Shown here: positions 1 through 9,536 of the stretch, piece by piece | How positions within the stretch are numbered: position 1 is the first letter of the stretch | How the letters are laid out: each line of letters opens with the position of its first letter | Virus record (IMG/VR): IMGVR_UViG_2529292726_000022 | Span: 1 to 10,240 of that record | Reading direction: 5' to 3' (one strand) | Length of the DNA stretch: 10,240 bases | Origin: a virus | Lineage: Duplodnaviria; Heunggongvirae; Uroviricota; Caudoviricetes | Position numbers and translations under genes: made by a program | The notes under the pieces: generated by a model | The model's database searches: none | Told to the model about the DNA's origin: nothing | The model's input: the letters and a program-made list of their open reading frames with translations, nothing else

Positions 1-1820
1 CCACCGAGATCCAGCGTCAGGCGCAGCAGTTTGTCAGAACCTTCGACAAACTCCGCGTTTTCAATCAGCGCCACACGCAGGTCAACTTTGGCGAAGTCGT
101 CAAAGGTGATGGTTTCCTGAATCGGGTCGTCAGCCAGTGGGCCAGTTACCGGTGCAGCTGTGGCTTTCACTTCTTCTTTGGATGCTTCCACCAGTGCTTC
201 CACCTGTTTCATATCGATACGGTTATACAGTGCCTTGAACGGATTCACTTTATGGCCCAGCAGCGGTTGCTGGATACCATCCCAGGTCAGTTCTGTATTC
301 AGGAATGCTTCTGCACGTTCAGTCAGTTTCGGCAGTACCGGTTTCAGGTACGTCATCAGCACGCGGAACAGGTTAATGCCCATAGAGCAAATCGCCTGCA
401 GATCGGCATCGCGTCCTTCCTGCTTCGCCACCACCCACGGAGCCTGTTCATCAACATAGCGGTTAGCCAGGTCAGCCAGTGCCATGATTTCACGGATAGC
501 TTTGCCAAATTCGCGGCTTTCCCATGCTTCGCCAATCACTTCAGCGGCATCAGTAAAGGTTTTGTACAGTTGCGGGTCAGCCAGTTCGCTTGCCAGCACG
601 CCGTCAAAACGCTTGTTGATAAAGCCTGCATTACGGGAGGCCAGGTTAACCACTTTGTTAACGATATCGGCATTCACACGCTGAACGAAATCTTCCAGAT
701 TGAGATCGATATCATCAATGCGCGAAGAGAGTTTCGCAGTGTAGTAGTAACGCAGGCTGTCGGCGTCAAAATGATTCAGCCAGGTGCTGGCTTTAATAAA
801 GGTGCCGCGAGACTTGGACATCTTCGCGCCGTTCACCGTCACATAGCCGTGAACAAACAGGTTGGTCGGCTTGCGGAAGTTGCTGCCTTCCAGCATGGCA
901 GGCCAGAACAGGCTGTGGAAGTAAACGATATCTTTGCCGATGAAGTGGTACAGCTCGGCGGTGGAGTCTTTCTTCCAGTAATCGTCGAAGCTGGTAGTGT
1001 CGCCGCGTTTGTCGCACAGATTCTTGAAAGAACCCATGTAGCCAATCGGCGCGTCCAGCCAGACGTAGAAGTATTTGCCCGGTGCGTTCGGAATTTCAAA
1101 ACCGAAGTAAGGTGCGTCACGGGAGATATCCCACTGTTGCAGGCCAGATTCAAACCACTCCTGCATTTTGTTTGCCACCTGCTCCTGCAACGCACCGCTG
1201 CGGGTCCATGCCTGCAACATTTCGCTGAAAGAAGGCAGATCAAAGAAGAAGTGTTCGGAATCACGCATTACCGGTGTAGCGCCAGAAACCACTGATTTCG
1301 GCTCGATCAGTTCCGTCGGGCTGTATGTCGCGCCGCAGACTTCACAGTTATCGCCGTATTGATCCGGCGCTTTACATTTCGGGCATGTGCCTTTTACAAA
1401 ACGGTCCGGCAGGAACATGCCTTTTTCCGGGTCGTACAGCTGAGAGATGGTGCGGTTTTTAATAAAACCGTTCTCTTTCAGGCGAGTATAGATAAGCTCG
1501 GACAACTGACGGTTCTCTTCGCTGTGCGTCGAGTGATAGTTGTCATAGCTGATGTTAAAGCCTGCGAAATCAGTCTGATGTTCCTGACTCATTTCGCCAA
1601 TCATCTGCTCCGGTGTGATACCAAGCTGCTGTGCTTTCAGCATGATCGGCGTACCGTGGGCATCGTCGGCACAGATGAAATTAACCTCGTGGCCGCGCAT
1701 TCGCTGGTAACGAACCCAGACATCAGCCTGGATGTGCTCCAGCATATGGCCGAGGTGGATTGAGCCGTTAGCGTACGGCAGCGCGCACGTCACCAGAATT
1801 TTCTTCGCGACTTGGGTCAT
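1..1820 (-). CDS. metG: Methionine--tRNA ligase (MetRS), partial: N-terminal ~606 codons in window, C-terminus beyond window start
   Basis: Minus-strand translation from ATG (complement of 1818-1820) reads [29 protein letters not shown]... with the class I aaRS HLGH motif (encoded ~1746-1757) and KMSKS (encoded 810-824). The frame stays open to position 1, so it is absent from the ORF track (no stop in window). Plus-strand ORFs 160-459, 252-1295, 484-684 are antisense shadows. Confidence 0.95.
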
Positions 1821-1977
1821 AGTAGGCATTACTTCTTTGTAGTGAAAAGGGGCTTGATAGTAACAAAATGGCCTTATGTCTGCCATGTGATAACAGCATT
1901 TCTCATAAATGATTAAATGTCGTAGCTGGAGTACACTACAAGGCGACAATTGCGCAAATTAAAATAAAGGAGACGGG
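1821..1977. promoter_or_regulatory. Divergent metG / mrp intergenic promoter region
   Basis: 157-bp AT-rich gap between divergently oriented starts; SD-like AAGGAG at 1967-1972, 5 nt before the mrp ATG (1978). Individual -10/-35 elements not resolved by eye. Confidence 0.5.
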
Positions 1978-3078
1978 ATGAGCGAGTCCAAATCGCCGGA
2001 TGCCCTGAGAGCAATGGTAGCCGGTACGCTGGCTAATTTTCAGCACCCAACCCTGAAACACAACCTGACTACGCTTAAAGCGTTACACCATGTTGCGTTG
2101 ATGGATGACACACTGCATGTCGAACTAATCATGCCTTTCGTGTGGAATAAGCCTTTTGAAGACCTGAAAGAGCAATGTAGTGGTGATCTGCTCCGTATCA
2201 CTGGCGCAAAGGCTATTGACTGGAAGCTGTCGTACAACATTGCCACGCTTAAGCGCGTCAAAAACCAACCAGGCATTAATGGCGTTAAGAACATTATCGC
2301 CGTCAGCTCAGGCAAGGGCGGCGTGGGTAAATCCTCCACGGCGGTAAACCTGGCACTGGCGTTGGCTGCTGAAGGTGCGAAAGTTGGTATTTTGGATGCC
2401 GATATCTATGGTCCATCAATTCCAACCATGCTGGGCGCGGAAAACCAACGTCCAACCTCACCTGACGGTACTCACATGGCACCTATCATGTCTCATGGCC
2501 TGGCAACCAACTCTATTGGTTATCTGGTCACCGACGACAATGCAATGGTGTGGCGTGGACCGATGGCCAGCAAGGCGCTGATGCAGATGTTGCAGGAAAC
2601 TCTATGGCCTGATCTGGACTATCTCGTTCTCGATATGCCGCCGGGCACTGGTGATATTCAGTTGACGCTGGCGCAGAACATTCCTGTAACTGGTGCGGTT
2701 GTGGTAACTACGCCGCAAGACATCGCGCTGATCGATGCGAAGAAAGGCATTGTGATGTTCGAAAAAGTCGAAGTGCCGGTACTGGGTATCGTCGAAAACA
2801 TGAGTGTGCATATTTGCAGTAACTGCGGTCATCACGAGCCAATTTTTGGCACCGGTGGCGCACAGAAACTGGCCGAGAAATACAACACGCAGTTGTTAGG
2901 CCAAATGCCACTTCATATCTCTCTTCGTGAAGATCTGGATAACGGAACACCAACCGTTATTAGTCGTCCAGATAGCGAATTTACAGCTATTTATCGTGAC
3001 CTCGCAGATCGCGTTGCTGCCCAAATGTATTGGCAAGGTGAAGTAATACCTGGCGAAATCGCATTCCGCGCAGTGTGA
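1978..3078 (+). CDS. apbC: Fe-S cluster carrier ATPase Mrp/ApbC (NBP35 family)
   Basis: 366-aa ORF with SD; deviant Walker A SSGKGGVGKSST, CxxC motif (CSNCGH), and the MSESKSPDALRAMVAGTLANFQHP... N-terminus typical of enterobacterial Mrp; conserved divergent arrangement with metG. Confidence 0.95.
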   Translation: MSESKSPDALRAMVAGTLANFQHPTLKHNLTTLKALHHVALMDDTLHVELIMPFVWNKPFEDLKEQCSGDLLRITGAKAIDWKLSYNIATLKRVKNQPGINGVKNIIAVSSGKGGVGKSSTAVNLALALAAEGAKVGILDADIYGPSIPTMLGAENQRPTSPDGTHMAPIMSHGLATNSIGYLVTDDNAMVWRGPMASKALMQMLQETLWPDLDYLVLDMPPGTGDIQLTLAQNIPVTGAVVVTTPQDIALIDAKKGIVMFEKVEVPVLGIVENMSVHICSNCGHHEPIFGTGGAQKLAEKYNTQLLGQMPLHISLREDLDNGTPTVISRPDSEFTAIYRDLADRVAAQMYWQGEVIPGEIAFRAV

Positions 3079-3115: not shown

Positions 3116-3505
3116 CTACATCACGGGACAATCATCAAACTCGCCACTTCTTGCGTCGTTGATAATGTGAGTGATCACACCAAACACGGCATTGCTGCCC
3201 GTGCATGCATCGTCATCCTTTGGCAATGCTTCCTTCTTACCGGTTCTTAAATCCTCCAGATGCTGACGTGGGTACTTCCGGTATCTTTTTACGCGATATT
3301 CCCCATCCAGAGCGCATACAAGCAGAGAACCATCAACCGGGGTAAGTGAGGAATCGACCACCAGCAATGCACCCTGTAATATTCCCTCACGATGATGACT
3401 ATCAGCTGCCCTCATGAAGTAGGTCGCTGAAGGATGTCTAATTATCTGCTGATCAAGAGAAATACGGCTCTCAGCATAATCCGCCGCAGGAGAAGGGAAG
3501 CCCAT
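3116..3505 (-). CDS. UmuD-family S24 peptidase, natively N-terminally truncated (UmuD'-like), 129 aa
   Basis: Starts MGFPSPAADYAESRISLDQQIIRHPSATYF..., co-linear with UmuD from the residue after its Cys24-Gly25 self-cleavage site. Ser of the Ser-Lys dyad retained (AADSH vs UmuD SGDSM), Lys retained (VKRYR vs VKKLQ). In-frame TAA 12 nt upstream of the ATG (complement of 3518-3520) rules out an N-terminal extension. SD AAGAGG precedes ATG. No umuC-like gene follows. Confidence 0.8.
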   Translation of the reverse strand: MGFPSPAADYAESRISLDQQIIRHPSATYFMRAADSHHREGILQGALLVVDSSLTPVDGSLLVCALDGEYRVKRYRKYPRQHLEDLRTGKKEALPKDDDACTGSNAVFGVITHIINDARSGEFDDCPVM

Positions 3506-3521
3506 AATACTCGCCTCTTAA

Positions 3522-3541
3522 CACTGTATATACATACAGTA
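3522..3541 (-). promoter_or_regulatory. LexA operator (SOS box)
   Basis: Minus-strand TACTGTATGTATATACAGTG: CTGT-N8-ACAG palindrome matching the consensus TACTGTATATATATACAGTA at 17/20, about 16 nt upstream of the UmuD'-like start codon, the same geometry as the E. coli umuDC operator. Confidence 0.8.
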
Positions 3542-3566
3542 TATGTTGAAGCTATATATTTTTGAA
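3538..3566 (-). promoter_or_regulatory. Putative sigma70 promoter of the UmuD'-like gene, overlapped by the LexA box
   Basis: Minus-strand -35 TTCAAA (complement of 3561-3566), 17-nt spacer, -10 TATACT (complement of 3538-3543); the -10 overlaps the upstream half of the LexA box. Confidence 0.5.
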
Positions 3567-3725
3567 CTCTATCTCTTAAAAAAGATGTTAATAAGATGCT
3601 AACTATTGAAAGGCATAAATATATACAATTCCAACAAACGTTATTTTTAACAAATTTTTTCTCTCCGTTGACTTTTGCGAAAGCCTTGTCTGGCCTAAAT
3701 TGCGCGGAAGCTACTTTTTCCTTAC

Positions 3726-3750
3726 AGAGTTATCCACAGAGTTATGCACT
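3726..3750 (+). repeat. Tandem 12-bp repeat containing DnaA-box-like 9-mers
   Basis: agagTTATCCAC / agagTTATGCAC in direct tandem (3726-3737, 3738-3749). TTATCCACA at 3730-3738 is a perfect DnaA box consensus; TTATGCACT at 3742-3750 matches TTATNCACA at 8/9. Confidence 0.3.
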
Positions 3751-3836
3751 TGCATGTATAACCTATACACACTATCTTAATTCGCAAGACACTGATGTTG
3801 CGGTATTGAAGGTTCATTGGGTTAAAAATAGACATT

Positions 3837-3867
3837 AAAAAGCCCAGTTGACTAGGCTGGGCTTTTT
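3837..3867. terminator. Bidirectional intrinsic terminator hairpin
   Basis: AAAAAGCCCAG-(9-nt loop)-CTGGGCTTTTT: 11-bp perfect inverted repeat with an A-tract 5' and T-tract 3', so it is U-tract-flanked on both strands. No confident CDS ends at it on either strand. Confidence 0.65.
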
Positions 3868-3900
3868 AAAAGGAAACAGAGTTTGCGGCTCTGTTCCTGA

Positions 3901-3920
3901 GCCATAAGTATCTGGCGACT
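3901..3920 (+). repeat. Direct repeat copy 1 (gccaTAAGTATCTGGCGACT)
   Basis: 20-bp sequence repeated at 4074-4093 with one mismatch (16-bp identical core TAAGTATCTGGCGACT at 3905-3920 and 4078-4093). Confidence 0.7.
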
Positions 3921-4073
3921 GAATTAAGATTAACCGAATGTACTGGATTCATCAAGAAACGTTGAGTGGTCATACCAGGTAATAATGACCATTTACTAAA
4001 CATCGTTGTTCTCAAAGAAGATTTAAGTCCAGGTTTTTGGTGACTCTAAAACCTTACCTTAACTCGAAATCGT

Positions 4074-4093
4074 GCCGTAAGTATCTGGCGACT
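4074..4093 (+). repeat. Direct repeat copy 2 (gccgTAAGTATCTGGCGACT)
   Basis: Second copy, 173 bp downstream of copy 1; preceded by AAATCGTGCCG (4066-4076), which recurs inside the small ORF at 4189-4199. Confidence 0.7.
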
Positions 4094-4167
4094 ACAGATA
4101 TTGCAACTGCAAAGGCAAGCCCAAAGGTATTTGCAGCTAGGCGCGATAAAACTAAGTGAGGCCTGTT

Positions 4168-4251
4168 ATGGTTAACTTACTGTTCAAAATCGTGCCGCCG
4201 ATGTTCGCGATTATCAAAGCGATCATTGAGTACGTAAACCAGCGTCCATAA
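4168..4251 (+). CDS. Candidate small hydrophobic protein, 27 aa (MVNLLFKIVPPMFAIIKAIIEYVNQRP)
   Basis: ATG at 4168 preceded by SD-like GTGAGG with 6-nt spacing; stop TAA 4249-4251; terminator hairpin 14 nt downstream. Peptide is mostly hydrophobic with a charged C-terminal tail. Too short for the ORF track. Confidence 0.3.
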   Translation: MVNLLFKIVPPMFAIIKAIIEYVNQRP

Positions 4252-4264
4252 CGCTAGTTGCTAC

Positions 4265-4297
4265 AGGCCCCATCAAGAGCATGGGGCCTCTTTATCG
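4265..4297 (+). terminator. Hairpin (aggcccca-N9-tggggcct) plus CTTTAT tract downstream of small ORF
   Basis: 8-bp GC-rich perfect stem followed by a short T-rich tract on the plus strand. On the minus strand it sits 18 nt past the stop of the operon's last gene (4307) but has no U-tract in that direction. Confidence 0.5.
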
Positions 4298-4306
4298 TAC
4301 TATTGC

Positions 4307-4933
4307 TTATTTTTTACGGACTGAGTTGTTCACTGCTCTGGCAATCTTCTCCCGCAATTGCTGCGTTCCGTGGTACTGAACCGCAATATCTCTCAACTCG
4401 TTCACCAGTTCTCGAATCTGGTGATCTTTAAGCTCATTATTTGGGTGATTGGTAACAACTCTGGTTAATTCACCCTTGTCTTTTGCTCTTACGTATGCAG
4501 CTCTTGTGCATTCGACCCATGTATTACCGCCTACATTAACTTCGTAGATTAGGCTGGACTTATCTGTCAATTCGGAACAAATACGGGCCGTGGTCTGGCA
4601 ACTAGAGCATTCGCAGTTATCGCGGAAACCGTGATCTACCGGTCGAGAAAGAGGTTTAACTTTTTCATCCAACTTCATCACAGCATCGTGATAAGCGTTC
4701 CAGCCGTCATCTTTACCAAGTTGATAAATCTCTGAAGGCTCCATGTAGTCTATATCGCAACCTTCTTCATCCGATCTATCTGGTCGCTTCCCTGGTAATC
4801 GCTCATAAAAACGATTTCTGTCTCGACGTTCGGCTCTCAGTGCTAACGCAAGAAGTTGCTCAAGCGAGGTATTTGCACCAGCAATAATTTCATTGAGAAT
4901 ATCTTCTGTGAGATCTTTCGCTACCGTGCTCAT
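4307..4933 (-). CDS. Hypothetical protein, 208 aa (last gene of operon)
   Basis: Long minus-strand ORF; ATG (complement 4931-4933) overlaps the stop of the upstream gene (ATGA); contains a Cys cluster (CECSSCQ). No recognisable family by eye. Confidence 0.7.
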   Translation of the reverse strand: MSTVAKDLTEDILNEIIAGANTSLEQLLALALRAERRDRNRFYERLPGKRPDRSDEEGCDIDYMEPSEIYQLGKDDGWNAYHDAVMKLDEKVKPLSRPVDHGFRDNCECSSCQTTARICSELTDKSSLIYEVNVGGNTWVECTRAAYVRAKDKGELTRVVTNHPNNELKDHQIRELVNELRDIAVQYHGTQQLREKIARAVNNSVRKK

Positions 4934-7850: not shown

Positions 7851-9536
7851 TCATTTAACGCGTTTGAAAACGTATACGCTGACTGTGATCCCGGTATCTT
7901 CAAACTCGTTGGTAAACGACTTCCCTCTGGCATAAACGTAATTATCCATCGTCATCCAGTCCAGTATTGGCGCAGTGCCCGGCAATACTGCTACAAGACG
8001 CCCGCCGACTTTCAGATGCCCCAGCGCAGCCAGCGTGTGCTCTCTATGACGACCAAGCGAGTACGGCGGGTTCATAACGATTTTGTCGAACTGATAACCT
8101 GCGTTGTCCTCAGACCACTTTATGAAGTCGCAGCAAATCGTGTTCGTATACCCTTTTCCACGCAGGATATCAGCGAAGAGAGGTGCGATTTCTATGCAGG
8201 TAACATCTTCCAGATCGGCGTTAATATAGGCCAGAAGATCCCCACGTCCGGCTTGAGGCTCCAGCAGCTTCTCACCAGGCTTCAATTCAGTGGCTCTGGC
8301 AACGTACTCAGCAATCAAGCGTGGGGTAGGGTAGAACTGGTGTGATTTTGTATCCGGTATTAAACCGGTAGCCACAATCGTATTTAGCGTATGGCCGATG
8401 TCATACGGGAACTGCCAGTGCTTTTTCTCCTGCACGCCGCCAATGAAGCTCAGTGTGCGCTCAAGCTCTTCCACCTGCGACTTCTGGAGAGCTGAATCAG
8501 AGAAGTACCATACGCCTTTGTCTTTGCTCAATCGCCCGTCACGAAGCGCAGTGCGAACCGGCACGGAGATCGTCTTCTGGATTAACCCGAACTGCTTTGG
8601 TGCCCGTGTTTTTGGCGCAGTTCGGCATGGCGCGGGAATTGCAGCAGGCATACTGTAAGCCAGCACCTCATTCAACTTCCAGGCCACGTCAGGATGTATT
8701 TCAAAGTGAACGTTGCCGTTCTTGAACATCTTCACGCGCATCAGATTTCCATCGACGTTCATCCAGTCACCGGTCTGGCAGTCGTTTGCCCGATACGCAG
8801 CTGATAGCACCTCAGCAGTGCGGTTGATGGTAATAAATTCTTTGTGCGCGAAGAAATGAAGCAAGACACGCAGATCGTCGATGTAGTCCTCTTTGCGATA
8901 GTTCACGCTAACGCTGTCCCGCCAGAAATCAGAAATGCAGTCAGCGATTATCAGACGCTCGCTGAAACCGTTTGTCTTATTTGTCTTGTGCGCAGGACTC
9001 AGCGCCTTAAACAAGCCATACACGCGCTCAGAGAGATATTTGTGCCTGTCATTCAGCAAATTAAGCATCGTGGGTATGACCGTTTCTGCTTTGAACTCCG
9101 GTACACCAACGAACTCTTTAACCTTCATCTGGTAGCCGGTTCTGTCAGTTTTGATGACTTCCTGTTTGCCCTCTATAAACTGCTCGCGCCACTCATCTCG
9201 ACGGGAAGCTGGCATGATCAGCAAAACGTTAGTCATGTCCGTGACCTTCCTCCAGTACTCGGCCCAAATATTCTGTTTCACCCATTCCAGATCGACTTTA
9301 TCCAACCAACCTCGATTTAAACGCGAGCGATCTTCATCTGGTCGATGGTTTAGTCTCAGCAGGCGATTAATCATGTTGTGGCGTTCGTCGCCATAAACGA
9401 AGTCGTGTACCTGATACATGAAGGCGATCTCTTTCTCGCACTCGGCCACGATTTCGTGGATGACATTCATTTCCTGACGATAGTCGATAGCCGTGTTTGA
9501 GCTGGCATCGTCGCTGATGGAAAGGGCTGTATTCAT
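7851..9536 (-). CDS. 561-aa protein: ~380-aa N-terminal region of unknown function plus C-terminal gamma-class N6-adenine (amino) methyltransferase domain
   Basis: Motif order FYPTP (motif X-like), LEPQAGRGD (motif I; EPQAGRGD encoded 8238-8261), ~55 aa, then MNPPY (motif IV, encoded 8061-8072), typical of gamma-class amino-MTases. Only ~70 aa follow NPPY, so no obvious C-terminal target-recognition domain. First gene of the operon. Confidence 0.8.
   Translation of the reverse strand: MNTALSISDDASSNTAIDYRQEMNVIHEIVAECEKEIAFMYQVHDFVYGDERHNMINRLLRLNHRPDEDRSRLNRGWLDKVDLEWVKQNIWAEYWRKVTDMTNVLLIMPASRRDEWREQFIEGKQEVIKTDRTGYQMKVKEFVGVPEFKAETVIPTMLNLLNDRHKYLSERVYGLFKALSPAHKTNKTNGFSERLIIADCISDFWRDSVSVNYRKEDYIDDLRVLLHFFAHKEFITINRTAEVLSAAYRANDCQTGDWMNVDGNLMRVKMFKNGNVHFEIHPDVAWKLNEVLAYSMPAAIPAPCRTAPKTRAPKQFGLIQKTISVPVRTALRDGRLSKDKGVWYFSDSALQKSQVEELERTLSFIGGVQEKKHWQFPYDIGHTLNTIVATGLIPDTKSHQFYPTPRLIAEYVARATELKPGEKLLEPQAGRGDLLAYINADLEDVTCIEIAPLFADILRGKGYTNTICCDFIKWSEDNAGYQFDKIVMNPPYSLGRHREHTLAALGHLKVGGRLVAVLPGTAPILDWMTMDNYVYARGKSFTNEFEDTGITVSVYVFKRVK

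What the first reader, a model, noticed from the sequence alone, without database searches (positions are those of the whole stretch)
3540..3900. AT-rich non-coding stretch with a strong bidirectional terminator but no obvious gene: possible sRNA locus
About 330 bp upstream of the UmuD'-like promoter is AT-rich with no convincing ORF. The only track ORF there (3596-3838) has no SD and encodes a low-complexity product, yet a near-ideal terminator (11-bp stem, A-tract and T-tract) sits at 3837-3867, with a second hairpin at 3875-3895 (aacagag-N7-ctctgtt). A terminator of this quality without an adjacent gene suggests a small RNA, or the 3' end of a transcript made from the 4160-to-3870 direction. 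AT-richness also suggests H-NS silencing of acquired DNA.
Basis: inference. Interest (0 to 1): 0.45.

Follow-up and report, generated by a model that had tools for sequence, protein, structure and literature searches.

The report
Hidden type I toxin-antitoxin locus
The 'orphan' terminator most likely ends an ~85-base small RNA on the minus strand whose 5' end pairs with the messenger of an unannotated 27-residue membrane-peptide gene 250 bases away, making an undescribed toxin/antitoxin-RNA pair of the dinQ/agrB type carried by phage-plasmids and prophages of enterobacteria.

Summary
In detail: both hairpins, the AT-richness and the lack of a real ORF all hold. The locus is not an isolated sRNA. 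It is half of an unannotated type I toxin-antitoxin module.

On the minus strand, a weak but conserved promoter (3955-3927) should start an RNA at about A3920. That RNA has a 20-nt single-stranded 5' seed, the hairpin at 3898-3871 and the terminator at 3869-3835.

The seed is fully complementary to 4074-4093, in the 5' leader of a 27-codon hydrophobic ORF (4168-4251, plus strand). That ORF has its own Shine-Dalgarno sequence and terminator.

In 13-19 diverged versions from SSU5-like phage-plasmids, Citrobacter/Enterobacter plasmids and prophages:
- both sRNA hairpins covary;
- seed and target covary (9 pairs changed on both sides, and 28 G-U cells that fit only this strand combination);
- the ORF evolves as coding sequence (pN/pS 0.26).

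The best Rfam hit is AgrB, but below threshold. The peptide matches no known toxin family.

The AT-rich part (3540-3834) holds the humD LexA promoter, a conserved element with DnaA boxes, and a conserved plus-strand promoter aimed at the same hairpin. The product of that promoter is unresolved. No expression data exist.

The parts
3522..3541 (.). LexA box of the humD (UmuD'-like) promoter
   Evidence: One mismatch to TACTGTATATNNATACAGTA, none expected by chance. The homologous site is annotated as a LexA site in P7 and P1.
3538..3566 (-). Sigma-70-like humD promoter (TTCAAA-17-TATACT) overlapping the LexA box
   Evidence: Promoter scan, 9 of 12 matches.
3631..3727 (.). Conserved non-coding element shared with P1/P7-type phage-plasmids (T-rich, TTGACT, GGCCTAAATTGCGCGG...). 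A collinear, distantly similar element precedes the module in all other variants.
   Evidence: Homology to P7/P1-type loci covers 3631-3754 and stops at 3754. The collinear element in the Citrobacter, Enterobacter and prophage versions is shown. P1 annotates the region as upfO/LPhot.
3730..3771 (+). Three same-orientation DnaA boxes: TTATCCACA (3730-3738, perfect), TTATGCACT (3742-3750) and CTATACACA (3763-3771).
   Evidence: Pattern search. The first two boxes are invariant in 9 relatives. P1's annotation notes 'two predicted DnaA boxes' at the homologous place. By count alone, the window has no more boxes than chance.
3755..3783 (+). Conserved + strand promoter-like element P(+): TTGCAT-17-TATCTT, pointing at the hairpin 52 nt downstream.
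   Evidence: A -35/-10 pair at the equivalent place in every variant. The other variants have TTGTAC-16-TAGAAT, TAAAAT or TACAAT; the P1/P7 type has TTGCAA-17-TATTGT. L006 has TTGCCA-17-TATGGT. It is below the scan's cut-off in the window itself.
3835..3869 (.). Terminator hairpin with an A-tract and a T-tract. It is the 3' end of the - strand sRNA, and in this lineage could also stop + strand transcripts.
   Evidence: There are 4 pairs with compensatory changes. The helix pairs in 203 of 207 cells as - strand RNA against 187 of 207 as + strand RNA, and a U-tail is present on the - strand in all 19 variants. The + strand T-run decays outside the close relatives.
3834..3920 (-). Predicted ~85-nt antitoxin sRNA: a 5' single-stranded seed, an internal hairpin, and a terminator hairpin with a U-tail.
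   Evidence: Covariance model R1 scores 99.6 bits at 3832-3921 (-). In the structure test 95% of cells are paired, with covariation 0.288 against 0.176 in shuffles (0 of 500). The best Rfam sub-threshold hit is AgrB at 3834-3915 (-).
3871..3898 (-).
   Evidence: The stem sequence differs between variants while pairing is kept.
3901..3920 (-). sRNA seed: the reverse complement of direct-repeat copy 1, GCCATAAGTATCTGGCGACT.
   Evidence: Repeat family D1. It is 100% conserved among 15 close relatives although its flanks diverge. It forms a continuous 20-25-bp duplex with the target in every locus, at -38 to -47 kcal/mol.
3927..3955 (-). Predicted sRNA promoter: -35 TTGATG (3955-3950), a 17-nt spacer, -10 TAATCT (3932-3927). 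The start would be at A3920.
   Evidence: Read. The -35 is TTGA(T/A)G and the -10 is TAA(T/G)(C/A)T in all variants, with the same 17-nt spacer and the same 6-nt gap to the seed. It matches only 7 of 12 consensus positions and is not listed by the scan.
3968..3990 (.). Small hairpin GGTCAT-N11-ATGACC of unknown role, between the two genes
   Evidence: Compensatory changes in L006 (GGTCGT/ACGACC) and L019 (AGTCAT/ATGACT).
4031..4054 (+). 5' hairpin of the toxin leader
   Evidence: RNAalifold. Pair 6/29 is AU in 8, GC in 7 and GU in 3 sequences; pair 11/24 is UA in 16 and CG in 2.
4074..4093 (+). sRNA target: direct-repeat copy 2, GCCGTAAGTATCTGGCGACT. It ends 75 nt upstream of the start codon, and part of it is presented in a hairpin (4080-4087 with 4095-4102).
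   Evidence: In the seed:target helix, pairs 1-20 are paired in all 13 variants and 9 pairs changed on both sides (0 of 500 shuffles).
4070..4146 (+). Long-range leader stem (4070-4076 with 4140-4146). It encloses the target hairpin and the invariant hairpin 4107-4136.
   Evidence: RNAalifold on 18 variants. The stem varies only on one side (G-U), so the support for it is weak.
4156..4161 (+). Shine-Dalgarno sequence GTGAGG, 6 nt before the ATG
   Evidence: Sequence. AAGTGAGG or AAGGA is conserved at this place.
4168..4251 (+). Predicted toxin ORF of 27 aa, MVNLLFKIVPPMFAIIKAIIEYVNQRP
   Evidence: Translation. Across 11 ORF variants pN/pS is 0.26, and variable sites by codon position are 15/6/23. 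GRAVY is 0.86. The ORF is unannotated in 86 plasmids and 2 phages.
4265..4289 (+). Terminator of the toxin mRNA
   Evidence: Terminator scan. The hairpin plus T-run is kept with different stem sequences in the variants.

Best explanation
**Proposed module.** The hairpin at 3835-3869 is the intrinsic terminator of a small RNA of about 85 nt, transcribed on the minus strand from about A3920. This RNA is the antitoxin of an unannotated type I toxin-antitoxin module.

**Proposed mechanism.** The first 20 nt of the sRNA are predicted to be unstructured, apart from a possible 4-bp stem. They pair with 4074-4093 in the 5' leader of a plus-strand mRNA encoding a 27-residue hydrophobic peptide (4168-4251). 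The target lies 75 nt upstream of the start codon, the same geometry as in dinQ/agrB and dqlB/agrB. It sits in a three-way-junction leader, and the first seven sRNA bases match a hairpin loop. Pairing would stop translation indirectly, by refolding the leader or blocking a ribosome standby site, and/or would expose the duplex to RNase III. That is how AgrB, IstR-1 and OrzO work (established knowledge; PMC5066626 for dinQ). If the phage-plasmid is lost, or sRNA synthesis stops, the peptide would be made and would damage the inner membrane.

**Shown by sequence comparison:**
- the structure and strand of the sRNA;
- seed/target complementarity and its co-evolution;
- the coding nature of the ORF.

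**Inferred:**
- the transcription start sites;
- toxicity of the peptide;
- the mode of repression;
- the biological role (plasmid addiction versus phage-related).

**The AT-rich stretch 3540-3834** is regulatory DNA: the humD LexA promoter, a conserved element with DnaA boxes, and a conserved plus-strand promoter aimed at the hairpin.
For: **1. Anatomy.** A direct repeat lies at 3901-3920 and 4074-4093. Read on the minus strand, copy 1 is followed by two hairpins and a U-tail.

**2. sRNA structure.** There are 19 distinct variants from 36+ loci. 95.2% of cells are paired and 7 pairs changed on both sides. The covariation score is 0.288 against 0.176 in shuffles (0 of 500). Slid controls give 29-68% paired.

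**3. Strand.** The terminator helix pairs in 203 of 207 cells as minus-strand RNA and in 187 of 207 as plus-strand RNA. A U-tail is present on the minus strand in all 19 variants. The plus-strand T-run is lost in the distant variants.

**4. Seed and target.**
- Every locus has a continuous 20-25-bp duplex, at -38 to -47 kcal/mol.
- Helix positions 1-20 are paired in all 13 variants.
- 9 pairs changed on both sides (0 of 500 shuffles).
- 28 G-U cells would be C-A mismatches for the opposite strand combination.
- L021 changed five positions in both copies, and also in the target's own stem partner.

**5. ORF.** pN/pS is 0.26 and variable sites by codon position are 15/6/23. A Shine-Dalgarno sequence and a terminator are conserved. 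A second, related peptide type lies in tandem in some variants.

**6. Reciprocal weak similarity to AgrB.**
- In the Rfam scan of 3500-4320, the best hit is AgrB. It is full length, on the minus strand at 3834-3915, with 27.6 bits and E 0.023.
- My model's two best hits in the K-12 dinQ locus are agrB and agrA with matching ends, at 24.1 and 23.5 bits; the next hit scores 10.2.

**7. Same layout.** The order and the spacing from target to start codon match dinQ/agrB and dqlB/agrB.

**8. Promoter.** The sRNA -35, -10 and spacing are conserved in all variants.
Against: - No transcript data of any kind are available. Every start and end is predicted.
- The sRNA promoter is weak by consensus (7 of 12) and was not listed by the promoter scan.
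- No conserved sigma-70-type promoter for the toxin was found between the sRNA promoter and the leader hairpin in any of 18 variants. The toxin's transcription start is therefore unknown.
- Short direct repeats can be kept alike by gene conversion. That would mimic seed/target covariation, although it would not explain why all differences between the two copies are G-U compatible on one strand combination only.
- The AgrB match is below Rfam's gathering score (27.6 against 40). The peptide matches no known toxin family.
- Within the closest relatives the toxin half is almost invariant, so the coding test rests on the distant variants.
Confidence: 0.8

Rival explanations
1. A plus-strand small RNA is made from the AT-rich stretch: promoter P(+) at 3755-3783, start near 3790, end at the T-tract 3863-3867, giving about 78 nt. 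It acts as an sRNA in its own right. This could be true in addition to the minus-strand sRNA, with the two RNAs converging on one bidirectional terminator and overlapping by about 35 nt.
For: - A -35/-10 pair at the equivalent position is present in every variant, including the P1/P7 type. Outside this lineage it is a good promoter, TTGTAC-16-TAGAAT.
- In the window the plus-strand hairpin is the more stable one (-20.6 kcal/mol) and is followed by five T.
- DnaA boxes flank or follow this promoter in many variants.
Against: - The sequence it would transcribe (3790-3834) is the least conserved part of the locus. Its identity is 0.87 against 1.00 for the seed, about half the bases differ in L006, and its length varies from about 45 to 110 nt between variants.
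- It contains no conserved seed, structure or ORF.
- The plus-strand T-run is degenerate in most distant variants.
- The terminator pairs less well as plus-strand RNA.
- In the window the promoter matches only 7 of 12 positions, and the scan does not list it.
Confidence: 0.3
2. P(+) is the real toxin promoter. The primary toxin mRNA would start near 3790, read through the hairpin, which then acts as an attenuator, and carry the full complement of the sRNA in a ~380-nt leader. The sRNA would be a cis-encoded antisense RNA with a second, repeat-derived target site at 4074-4093.
For: - No other conserved promoter lies upstream of the toxin leader.
- P(+) is conserved everywhere.
- In the P1/P7-type module, P(+) is the only evident promoter for the 45-codon ORF, and the opposing promoter (TTGACG-17-TATAGT) gives a cis-antisense RNA.
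- A hairpin at 3968-3990 covaries, which suggests that RNA covers the spacer.
Against: - In this window the hairpin with five U should stop most plus-strand transcripts.
- dinQ and dqlB, which have the same layout, carry their own promoters between the sRNA gene and the toxin (PMC3567139).
- The spacer 3958-4019 is poorly conserved between distant variants, with many insertions and deletions.
Confidence: 0.35
3. The hairpin is only a terminator or insulator. It would stop read-through from the minus-strand operon that ends at 4307, protecting the LexA-controlled humD promoter. There would be no sRNA, and the repeat and small ORF would be incidental.
For: - The upstream minus-strand genes (4307-4933 and beyond) have no obvious minus-strand terminator of their own. 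The hairpin at 4289-4265 has no T-run on that strand.
- The terminator may well do this job as well.
Against: - It does not explain the conserved promoter 30-60 nt upstream of the hairpins.
- It does not explain the invariant 20-nt seed between diverged flanks, the covariation of seed and target, or the purifying selection on the ORF.
- The same module occurs in plasmids and prophages where the neighbouring genes are different.
Confidence: 0.05
4. The sRNA and peptide pair is real but is not a toxin-antitoxin system. The peptide would be a harmless small membrane protein, for example a phage-encoded modulator, whose synthesis the sRNA merely tunes.
For: - The peptide is less hydrophobic than DinQ or DqlB (GRAVY 0.86 against 1.8).
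- It has two prolines in mid-helix.
- It matches no toxin family.
Against: - The architecture (divergent sRNA, long structured leader, target far upstream of the RBS, own terminators) is that of the dinQ, tisB, zorO and shoB class of toxins.
- It lies on low-copy phage-plasmids that collect addiction modules (PMC9928086).
- A proline in the transmembrane helix is also a feature of Fst/Ldr toxins (from memory, not tested).
Confidence: 0.12

Closest known systems
dinQ/agrA-agrB of E. coli K-12 (Weel-Sneve 2013, PMC3567139; Kristiansen 2016, PMC5066626)
   Same: - The gene order and orientation match. An ~85-nt sRNA (seed, hairpin, terminator) is transcribed divergently upstream of the toxin.
- The complementarity comes from a direct repeat of part of the toxin leader.
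- The target ends about 73-76 nt before the start codon in both systems.
- The toxin is a 27-aa single-helix peptide with its own terminator.
- The leader is structured, with a candidate long-range stem.
- There is a weak reciprocal covariance-model similarity of the sRNAs, including the hairpin apex AGAGCCNCNAACUC.
   Different: - The sRNA scores below Rfam's AgrB threshold (27.6 against 40 bits).
- The peptide is unrelated by sequence: hhalign probability is 0.16% and it does not hit NCBIfam DinQ.
- The leader sequence between target and start codon is unrelated.
- No LexA box lies near the toxin.
- There is one sRNA copy, not two.
- The complementarity is 20-25 nt, against about 31 nt.
- The locus is on phage-plasmids and prophages, not at the arsR-gor chromosomal site.
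dqlB/agrB of conjugative plasmids (pOXA-48 and IncX, IncI, IncL/M; PMC12365149, PMC5066626)
   Same: - It is plasmid-borne and commonly unannotated.
- The layout and the target-to-ATG distance are identical.
- It has been shown experimentally to act as an addiction module. That is the most likely role here, by analogy.
   Different: - The peptide does not reach NCBIfam DqlB, and hhalign probability is 6.7%.
- My sRNA model finds the IncX4 agrB at only 12.5 bits.
- The hosts here are non-conjugative phage-plasmids and prophages.
zorO/orzO, tisB/istR-1 and shoB/ohsC (chromosomal type I systems with divergently encoded, trans-acting sRNAs; from established knowledge, PMC5397157, PMC11264685)
   Same: - A short (18-25 nt) complementarity lies far upstream of the RBS, in a long structured 5' UTR.
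- Repression is indirect (standby site or refolding) and involves RNase III.
   Different: - No sequence similarity was detected: none of these families appeared in the Rfam E<=10 scan.
- There is no SOS control.
par (Fst/RNA II) of pAD1 (from memory, not tested)
   Same: - Convergent transcripts share one bidirectional terminator.
- The complementarity is provided by direct repeats.
- The toxin helix contains proline.
   Different: - There, the convergent partner of the antitoxin is the toxin mRNA itself.
- Here, the RNA converging on the sRNA, if made, carries no ORF, and the toxin lies on the other side of the sRNA gene.

Membership tests
Type I toxin-antitoxin systems (general) | Small (<60 aa) hydrophobic peptide ORF that is really coding | tested here: met
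   The ORF is 27 aa with GRAVY 0.86. Across 11 variants pN/pS is 0.26 and variable sites by codon position are 15/6/23. The Shine-Dalgarno sequence and terminator are conserved.
Type I toxin-antitoxin systems (general) | Adjacent non-coding RNA gene with its own promoter and terminator | tested here: met
   This was tested by comparison only. The -35/-10/spacing are conserved. The two hairpins covary (95% of cells paired, 7 double changes, 0 of 500 shuffles). A U-tail is present in 19 of 19 variants. There is no transcript evidence.
Type I toxin-antitoxin systems (general) | Base-pairing between the RNA and the toxin mRNA | tested here: met
   A continuous 20-25-bp duplex is present in all loci. 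Nine pairs changed on both sides, and G-U cells occur on one strand combination only.
Type I toxin-antitoxin systems (general) | Peptide toxic when over-produced, and toxicity neutralised by the RNA | not testable with these tools
   This needs expression and rescue assays.
Rfam AgrB (RF02891) | Covariance-model score at or above the gathering score (40 bits) | tested here: not met
   The score is 27.6 bits with E 0.023, as a full-length match at 3834-3915 (-). There is no hit at gathering thresholds.
dinQ/dql family (Kristiansen 2016) | Peptide with DinQ or Dql signature residues (NCBIfam NF041472, NF041473) | tested here: not met
   The peptides give no hit at E<=10, while K-12 DinQ scores 54 bits as a control. 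hhalign probabilities are 0.16% and 6.7%.
dinQ/dql family (Kristiansen 2016) | 5' UTR sequence similarity to dinQ (conserved elements 1-4) | tested here: not met
   A BLASTN search with the whole dinQ-agrAB region found 3398 plasmids carrying dql or dinQ. None of the listed records was of this module's type. By eye, the leaders differ between the target and the ATG.
dinQ/dql family (Kristiansen 2016) | Divergent sRNA derived from a direct repeat of the leader, with the target about 75 nt upstream of the start codon | tested here: met
   The distance is 75 nt in the window, about 73 nt in dinQ and about 76 nt in dqlB.
dinQ (SOS regulon member) | LexA box in the toxin promoter | tested here: not met
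   The only LexA-like site in the window is at 3522-3541 and belongs to humD.
Known toxin or phage protein families (Pfam, incl. Hok, Ldr; PHROGs) | Profile match of the peptide | tested here: not met
   None of the 14 family members matches any Pfam family at E<=10. There is no PHROG match better than E 0.16.

The most novel reading that the evidence does not exclude
The conserved upstream element (3631-3790) may be a shared, DnaA-responsive driver cassette. It consists of a T-rich tract, TTGAC, the GGCC..GCGC motif, DnaA boxes and the plus-strand promoter P(+).

This element sits in front of at least two unrelated small-toxin/antisense-RNA modules: this one, and the P1/P7 'upfM-O' one. P(+) fires against the antitoxin gene.

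If so, the balance of toxin and antitoxin would be coupled to DnaA availability, that is, to the replication state of the cell or of the phage-plasmid. Different toxin cassettes would have been swapped in behind one sensor.
Probability: 0.12. Interest if true: 0.7.

Novelty: new member of a known kind. Interest (0 to 1): 0.5.

Why it matters
- **It resolves an unannotated region.** An ~800-bp stretch in a common group of E. coli phage-plasmids becomes a defined gene pair. At least 80% of 3400-4320 is present in 113 of 5426 complete E. coli genomes. At least 80% of 3835-4300 is present in 84 PLSDB plasmids. The module also occurs in 33 IMG/VR viral contigs.
- **It adds new families.** The peptide is a new type I toxin family and the sRNA a candidate new RNA family. 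Neither Rfam, NCBIfam, Pfam nor PHROGs captures them.
- **It bears on evolution.** It gives a possible evolutionary bridge to AgrB.
- **It has practical use.** If the module works as an addiction system, like DqlB/agrB on pOXA-48, it affects the stability and curing of phage-plasmids. Some of these carry resistance genes.
- **It raises follow-up questions.** P1's upfM/N/O 'genes' are probably mis-calls over a second such module. It also flags an unexplained association of DnaA boxes with these loci.

Tried and rejected
- **ORF 3596-3838 as a gene.** Rejected, because the ORF is broken in close relatives.
- **tRNA, tmRNA or a known RNA family.** None was found.
- **Membership in AgrB, DinQ or DqlB.** All thresholds were missed.
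- **The window as a P1 derivative.** My first assumption was wrong. The window is 99.3% identical to phage-plasmid Cyrano/pLF82, which is SSU5-like (PMC9928086). Only humD and the element 3506-3754 are shared with P1/P7.
- **Homology of the P1/P7-type downstream module to this sRNA.** It is not detectable: 13.4 bits, no better than a background hit.
- **A sigma-70 promoter for the toxin between 3957 and 4031.** No conserved candidate appeared in 18 variants.
- **A protein database search with the peptide.** The exact look-up shows only 'hypothetical protein'.
- **Literature.** No paper describes this locus. One search was rejected for a too-short term.
- It was run with a typing error in one sequence and is superseded.
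- **An SD-sequestering stem between 4140-4147 and codons 7-9 (4187-4194).** The single-sequence fold shows it, but by eye the pairing is not kept in L020. I do not rely on it.
Full report
**1. Where the window comes from**

The stretch 3400-4320 is 100% identical to E. coli plasmids of about 110 kb, such as pCUVET20-PYO4.2. It is 99.3% identical to phage-plasmid Cyrano (pLF82). The literature describes Cyrano as SSU5-like (PMC9928086).

The local gene order is:
- metG (minus strand, running off the left end of the window);
- apbC, 1978-3078 (+);
- humD (UmuD'-like), 3116-3505 (-);
- an unannotated gap, 3506-4306;
- a run of minus-strand hypothetical genes from 4307 onward.

No record annotates anything in the gap.

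**2. The observation**

- The terminator has perfect 13-nt arms at 3835-3847 and 3857-3869, with a five-A and a five-T tract. It folds at -20.6 kcal/mol on the plus strand and -17.1 kcal/mol on the minus strand, with z about -5.
- The second hairpin, aacagag-N7-ctctgtt, lies at 3875-3895, with z about -3.3.
- GC falls to 0.36-0.38.
- ORF 3596-3838 carries a stop codon or frameshifts in relatives that are 88-92% identical, and is absent at 72% identity. It is not a gene.

**3. What lies around it**

A 20-nt direct repeat lies at 3901-3920 and 4074-4093.

Downstream of the second copy is a 27-codon ORF (4168-4251), MVNLLFKIVPPMFAIIKAIIEYVNQRP. It has the Shine-Dalgarno sequence GTGAGG six bases upstream and a terminator at 4265-4289.

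Read on the minus strand, repeat copy 1 is the 5' end of a unit made of 20 nt, a hairpin, and a terminator hairpin with UUUUU. A promoter-like TTGATG-17-TAATCT precedes it and puts the start at A3920. The 20 nt are the exact complement of 4074-4093, with one G-U pair. This is the layout of type I toxin-antitoxin systems whose antitoxin RNA is encoded divergently next to the toxin.

An Rfam scan of 3500-4320 at relaxed thresholds supports this independently. Its best hit is AgrB, the antitoxin of dinQ. The hit is full length, on the minus strand at 3834-3915, with 27.6 bits and E 0.023, which is below the gathering score of 40.

**4. Relatives**

BLAST and one pattern scan of the leader hairpin produced the module from several sources:
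- many SSU5-like plasmids;
- an E. marmotae plasmid, 82% identical;
- Citrobacter freundii and Enterobacter hormaechei plasmids;
- contigs of Kluyvera and Citrobacter;
- 33 IMG/VR viral contigs.

These give 35 distinct versions of the module and 19 distinct versions of the sRNA.

**5. Tests of the sRNA**

A covariance model built from the 19 versions re-aligns them by structure.
- 95.2% of cells are paired.
- Seven pairs changed on both sides.
- The covariation score is 0.288, against 0.176 in shuffles (0 of 500).
- Sliding the partners drops pairing to 29-68%.

The strand is decided by three observations:
- The terminator helix pairs in 203 of 207 cells as minus-strand RNA and in 187 of 207 as plus-strand RNA, because 19 cells are G-U on the minus strand.
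- A run of four to six U follows it on the minus strand in all 19 versions.
- The plus-strand T-run is degenerate outside the close relatives, for example GGGCCTTTCAG.

The -35 (TTGATG or TTGAAG), the -10 (TAATCT, TAAGCT or TAAGAT), the 17-nt spacer and the 6-nt gap to the seed are the same in all versions. By consensus the promoter is weak, and the scan does not list it.

**6. Tests of the pairing**

Every locus has a continuous 20-25-bp duplex between the sRNA 5' end and its own leader, at -38 to -47 kcal/mol.

I joined seed and target of 13 distinct versions into one helix for a formal count:
- positions 1-20 are paired in all versions;
- nine pairs changed on both sides (0 of 500 shuffles);
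- the slid controls give 29-41% pairing.

The clearest cases are these:
- L021 has AAAACACTGG instead of AATGTATCTGG in both copies. It also has a matching change in the target's own stem partner.
- L018 and L027 have GGCAGC instead of GGCGAC in both copies.
- L015 has ATCCGG in both copies.

Where the two copies differ, the difference is always a G-U pair for minus-strand sRNA against plus-strand mRNA. There are 28 such cells, and each would be a C-A mismatch for the opposite strand combination. Gene conversion between the repeats could keep them alike, but it would not produce this asymmetry.

**7. Tests of the ORF**

Eleven 27-codon versions give pS 0.43 and pN 0.11, so pN/pS is 0.26. Variable sites number 15, 6 and 23 at codon positions 1, 2 and 3.

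A second, related peptide type (MQMLLLFLKLAHPVAVIIMTLLGYWKDR) replaces it or precedes it in tandem in the Citrobacter and Enterobacter versions.

The peptides match nothing in NCBIfam, Pfam or PHROGs. The NCBIfam control DinQ scores 54 bits. Profile comparison with DinQ and DqlB gives probabilities of 0.16% and 6.7%. Public collections hold the peptide only as 'hypothetical protein'. It is unannotated in 86 plasmids and 2 phage records.

**8. The leader**

RNAalifold on 18 versions gives four elements:
- a covarying 5' hairpin (4031-4054);
- a long-range stem (4070-4076 with 4140-4146), which has one-sided changes only;
- the target folded as a hairpin (4080-4087 with 4095-4102) that presents GGCGACU, the complement of the sRNA's first seven bases, in its loop;
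- an invariant hairpin (4107-4136).

The mRNA must therefore start upstream of 4031. No conserved sigma-70 promoter was found between the sRNA promoter and that point.

**9. The AT-rich stretch itself (3540-3834)**

It contains four recognisable parts.

(a) The humD promoter TTCAAA-17-TATACT overlaps the LexA box at 3522-3541.

(b) A conserved element spans 3631-3754. It is shared at 74-84% identity with P1/P7-type phage-plasmids, where homology stops sharply at 3754. P1's own annotation places 'two predicted DnaA boxes' and the late promoter LPhot there.

(c) DnaA boxes lie at 3730-3738 (perfect), 3742-3750 and 3763-3771.

(d) A plus-strand promoter-like element, TTGCAT-17-TATCTT, lies at 3755-3783. 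It has a counterpart in every version of the module and in the P1/P7 type, and outside this lineage it is a good promoter, TTGTAC-16-TAGAAT.

This promoter, P(+), points at the hairpin 52 nt away. The sequence between them is the least conserved part of the locus and varies in length.

What P(+) makes is unresolved. It may make a short plus-strand RNA ended by the same hairpin. Alternatively it may make the primary toxin transcript by read-through. The two possibilities are listed as rivals.

**10. Relation to known systems**

The K-12 dinQ/agrA/agrB locus and an IncX4 dqlB/agrB locus have the same order, the same orientations and nearly the same distance from target to start codon (73-76 nt).

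With filters off, my sRNA model's two best hits in the 3.2-kb dinQ locus are agrB (2289-2380; annotated 2295-2376) at 24.1 bits and agrA at 23.5 bits. The next hit scores 10.2 bits. On the IncX4 locus it finds agrB at only 12.5 bits.

The module therefore works like dinQ/agrB, and its sRNA may be a distant relative of AgrB. It fails every membership threshold: Rfam AgrB, NCBIfam DinQ and DqlB, leader similarity, and the LexA box.

DqlB/agrB was recently shown to be an addiction module of pOXA-48 and to be widely unannotated (PMC12365149). dinQ and its dql relatives were defined in PMC3567139 and PMC5066626. No paper found describes the present locus.

**11. Verdict**

- The terminator is the 3' end of a minus-strand antitoxin-type sRNA (confidence about 0.8).
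- The finding is real and is explained by a known kind of system. The toxin and the sRNA families themselves appear to be undescribed.
- The remaining unknowns are all transcript ends, the toxicity of the peptide, the toxin promoter, and the role of P(+) and the DnaA boxes.

Noticed in passing
L008 1620-2045 (P1-like plasmid); P1 NC_005856 about 85,990-86,460 (L010 2490-2960); also L007, L009 and P7 (L002): In P1/P7-type phage-plasmids the same conserved element and P(+) are followed by a different module. It has a 45-codon hydrophobic ORF (MTAFFQFLSAFLDAPVISQILAIILIIVLILLLRSVKNGIMHWLT; kept as a 45-codon ORF in L009 despite DNA divergence). The ORF lies on the strand opposite to P1's annotated upfM/upfN/upfO. 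A strong opposing promoter, TTGACG-17-TATAGT (P1's 'PupfN'), would give a cis-antisense RNA with two hairpins. This is probably a second, unrelated type I toxin-antitoxin candidate, and upfM-O are probably mis-calls.
   Followed up: partly
window 3730-3771; L020, L035, L036 and L045 between P(+) and the sRNA terminator: Perfect DnaA boxes (TTATCCACA, sometimes as an inverted pair) accompany the module in several otherwise diverged versions. They lie either just upstream of P(+) or in the stretch P(+) would transcribe. I know of no such association for type I systems.
   Followed up: partly
window 1-3078: The phage-plasmid carries host-like metG (methionyl-tRNA synthetase) and apbC/mrp next to humD. 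The E. marmotae relative has der (the EngA GTPase) at the corresponding place.
   Followed up: no
L013 1642-1831, L014 1653-1846, L018, L034: Some versions carry two related small hydrophobic ORFs in tandem behind one leader (type B, then type A), each with its own Shine-Dalgarno sequence. The window has only type A.
   Followed up: partly
window 4064-4077 and 4184-4197: A 14-nt direct repeat, TC(G/A)AAATCGTGCCG, occurs once just before the sRNA target and once inside the ORF (codons 6-10). GGCGCGAT at 4140-4147 can pair with either copy. This suggests mutually exclusive leader structures, as described for dinQ, but by eye the ORF copy is not kept in L020.
   Followed up: partly
window 3968-3990: A hairpin, GGTCAT-N11-ATGACC, lies between the sRNA promoter and the toxin leader. 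It shows compensatory changes in two relatives. Its strand and role are unknown.
   Followed up: no
L007 1478-1510; P7 (L002) about 3455-3490: P7-type plasmids keep a relic of the window's arrangement. A truncated copy of the humD 5' end and half a LexA box lie directly next to the conserved element, about 1.3-2.5 kb from the real humD. In P7 an IS903 lies beside it.
   Followed up: no
L019 (JAEWTL010000044.1, 'MAG: Bacillota bacterium'): This contig's copy of the module is identical to that of E. coli plasmid pTB212 (L016). The contig is probably mis-binned or a contaminant in the MAG.
   Followed up: no
window 7851-9536: A large DUF4942 gene and a run of Ead/Ea22-like small genes lie on the minus strand upstream of the locus. 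They are annotated as such in Cyrano.
   Followed up: no
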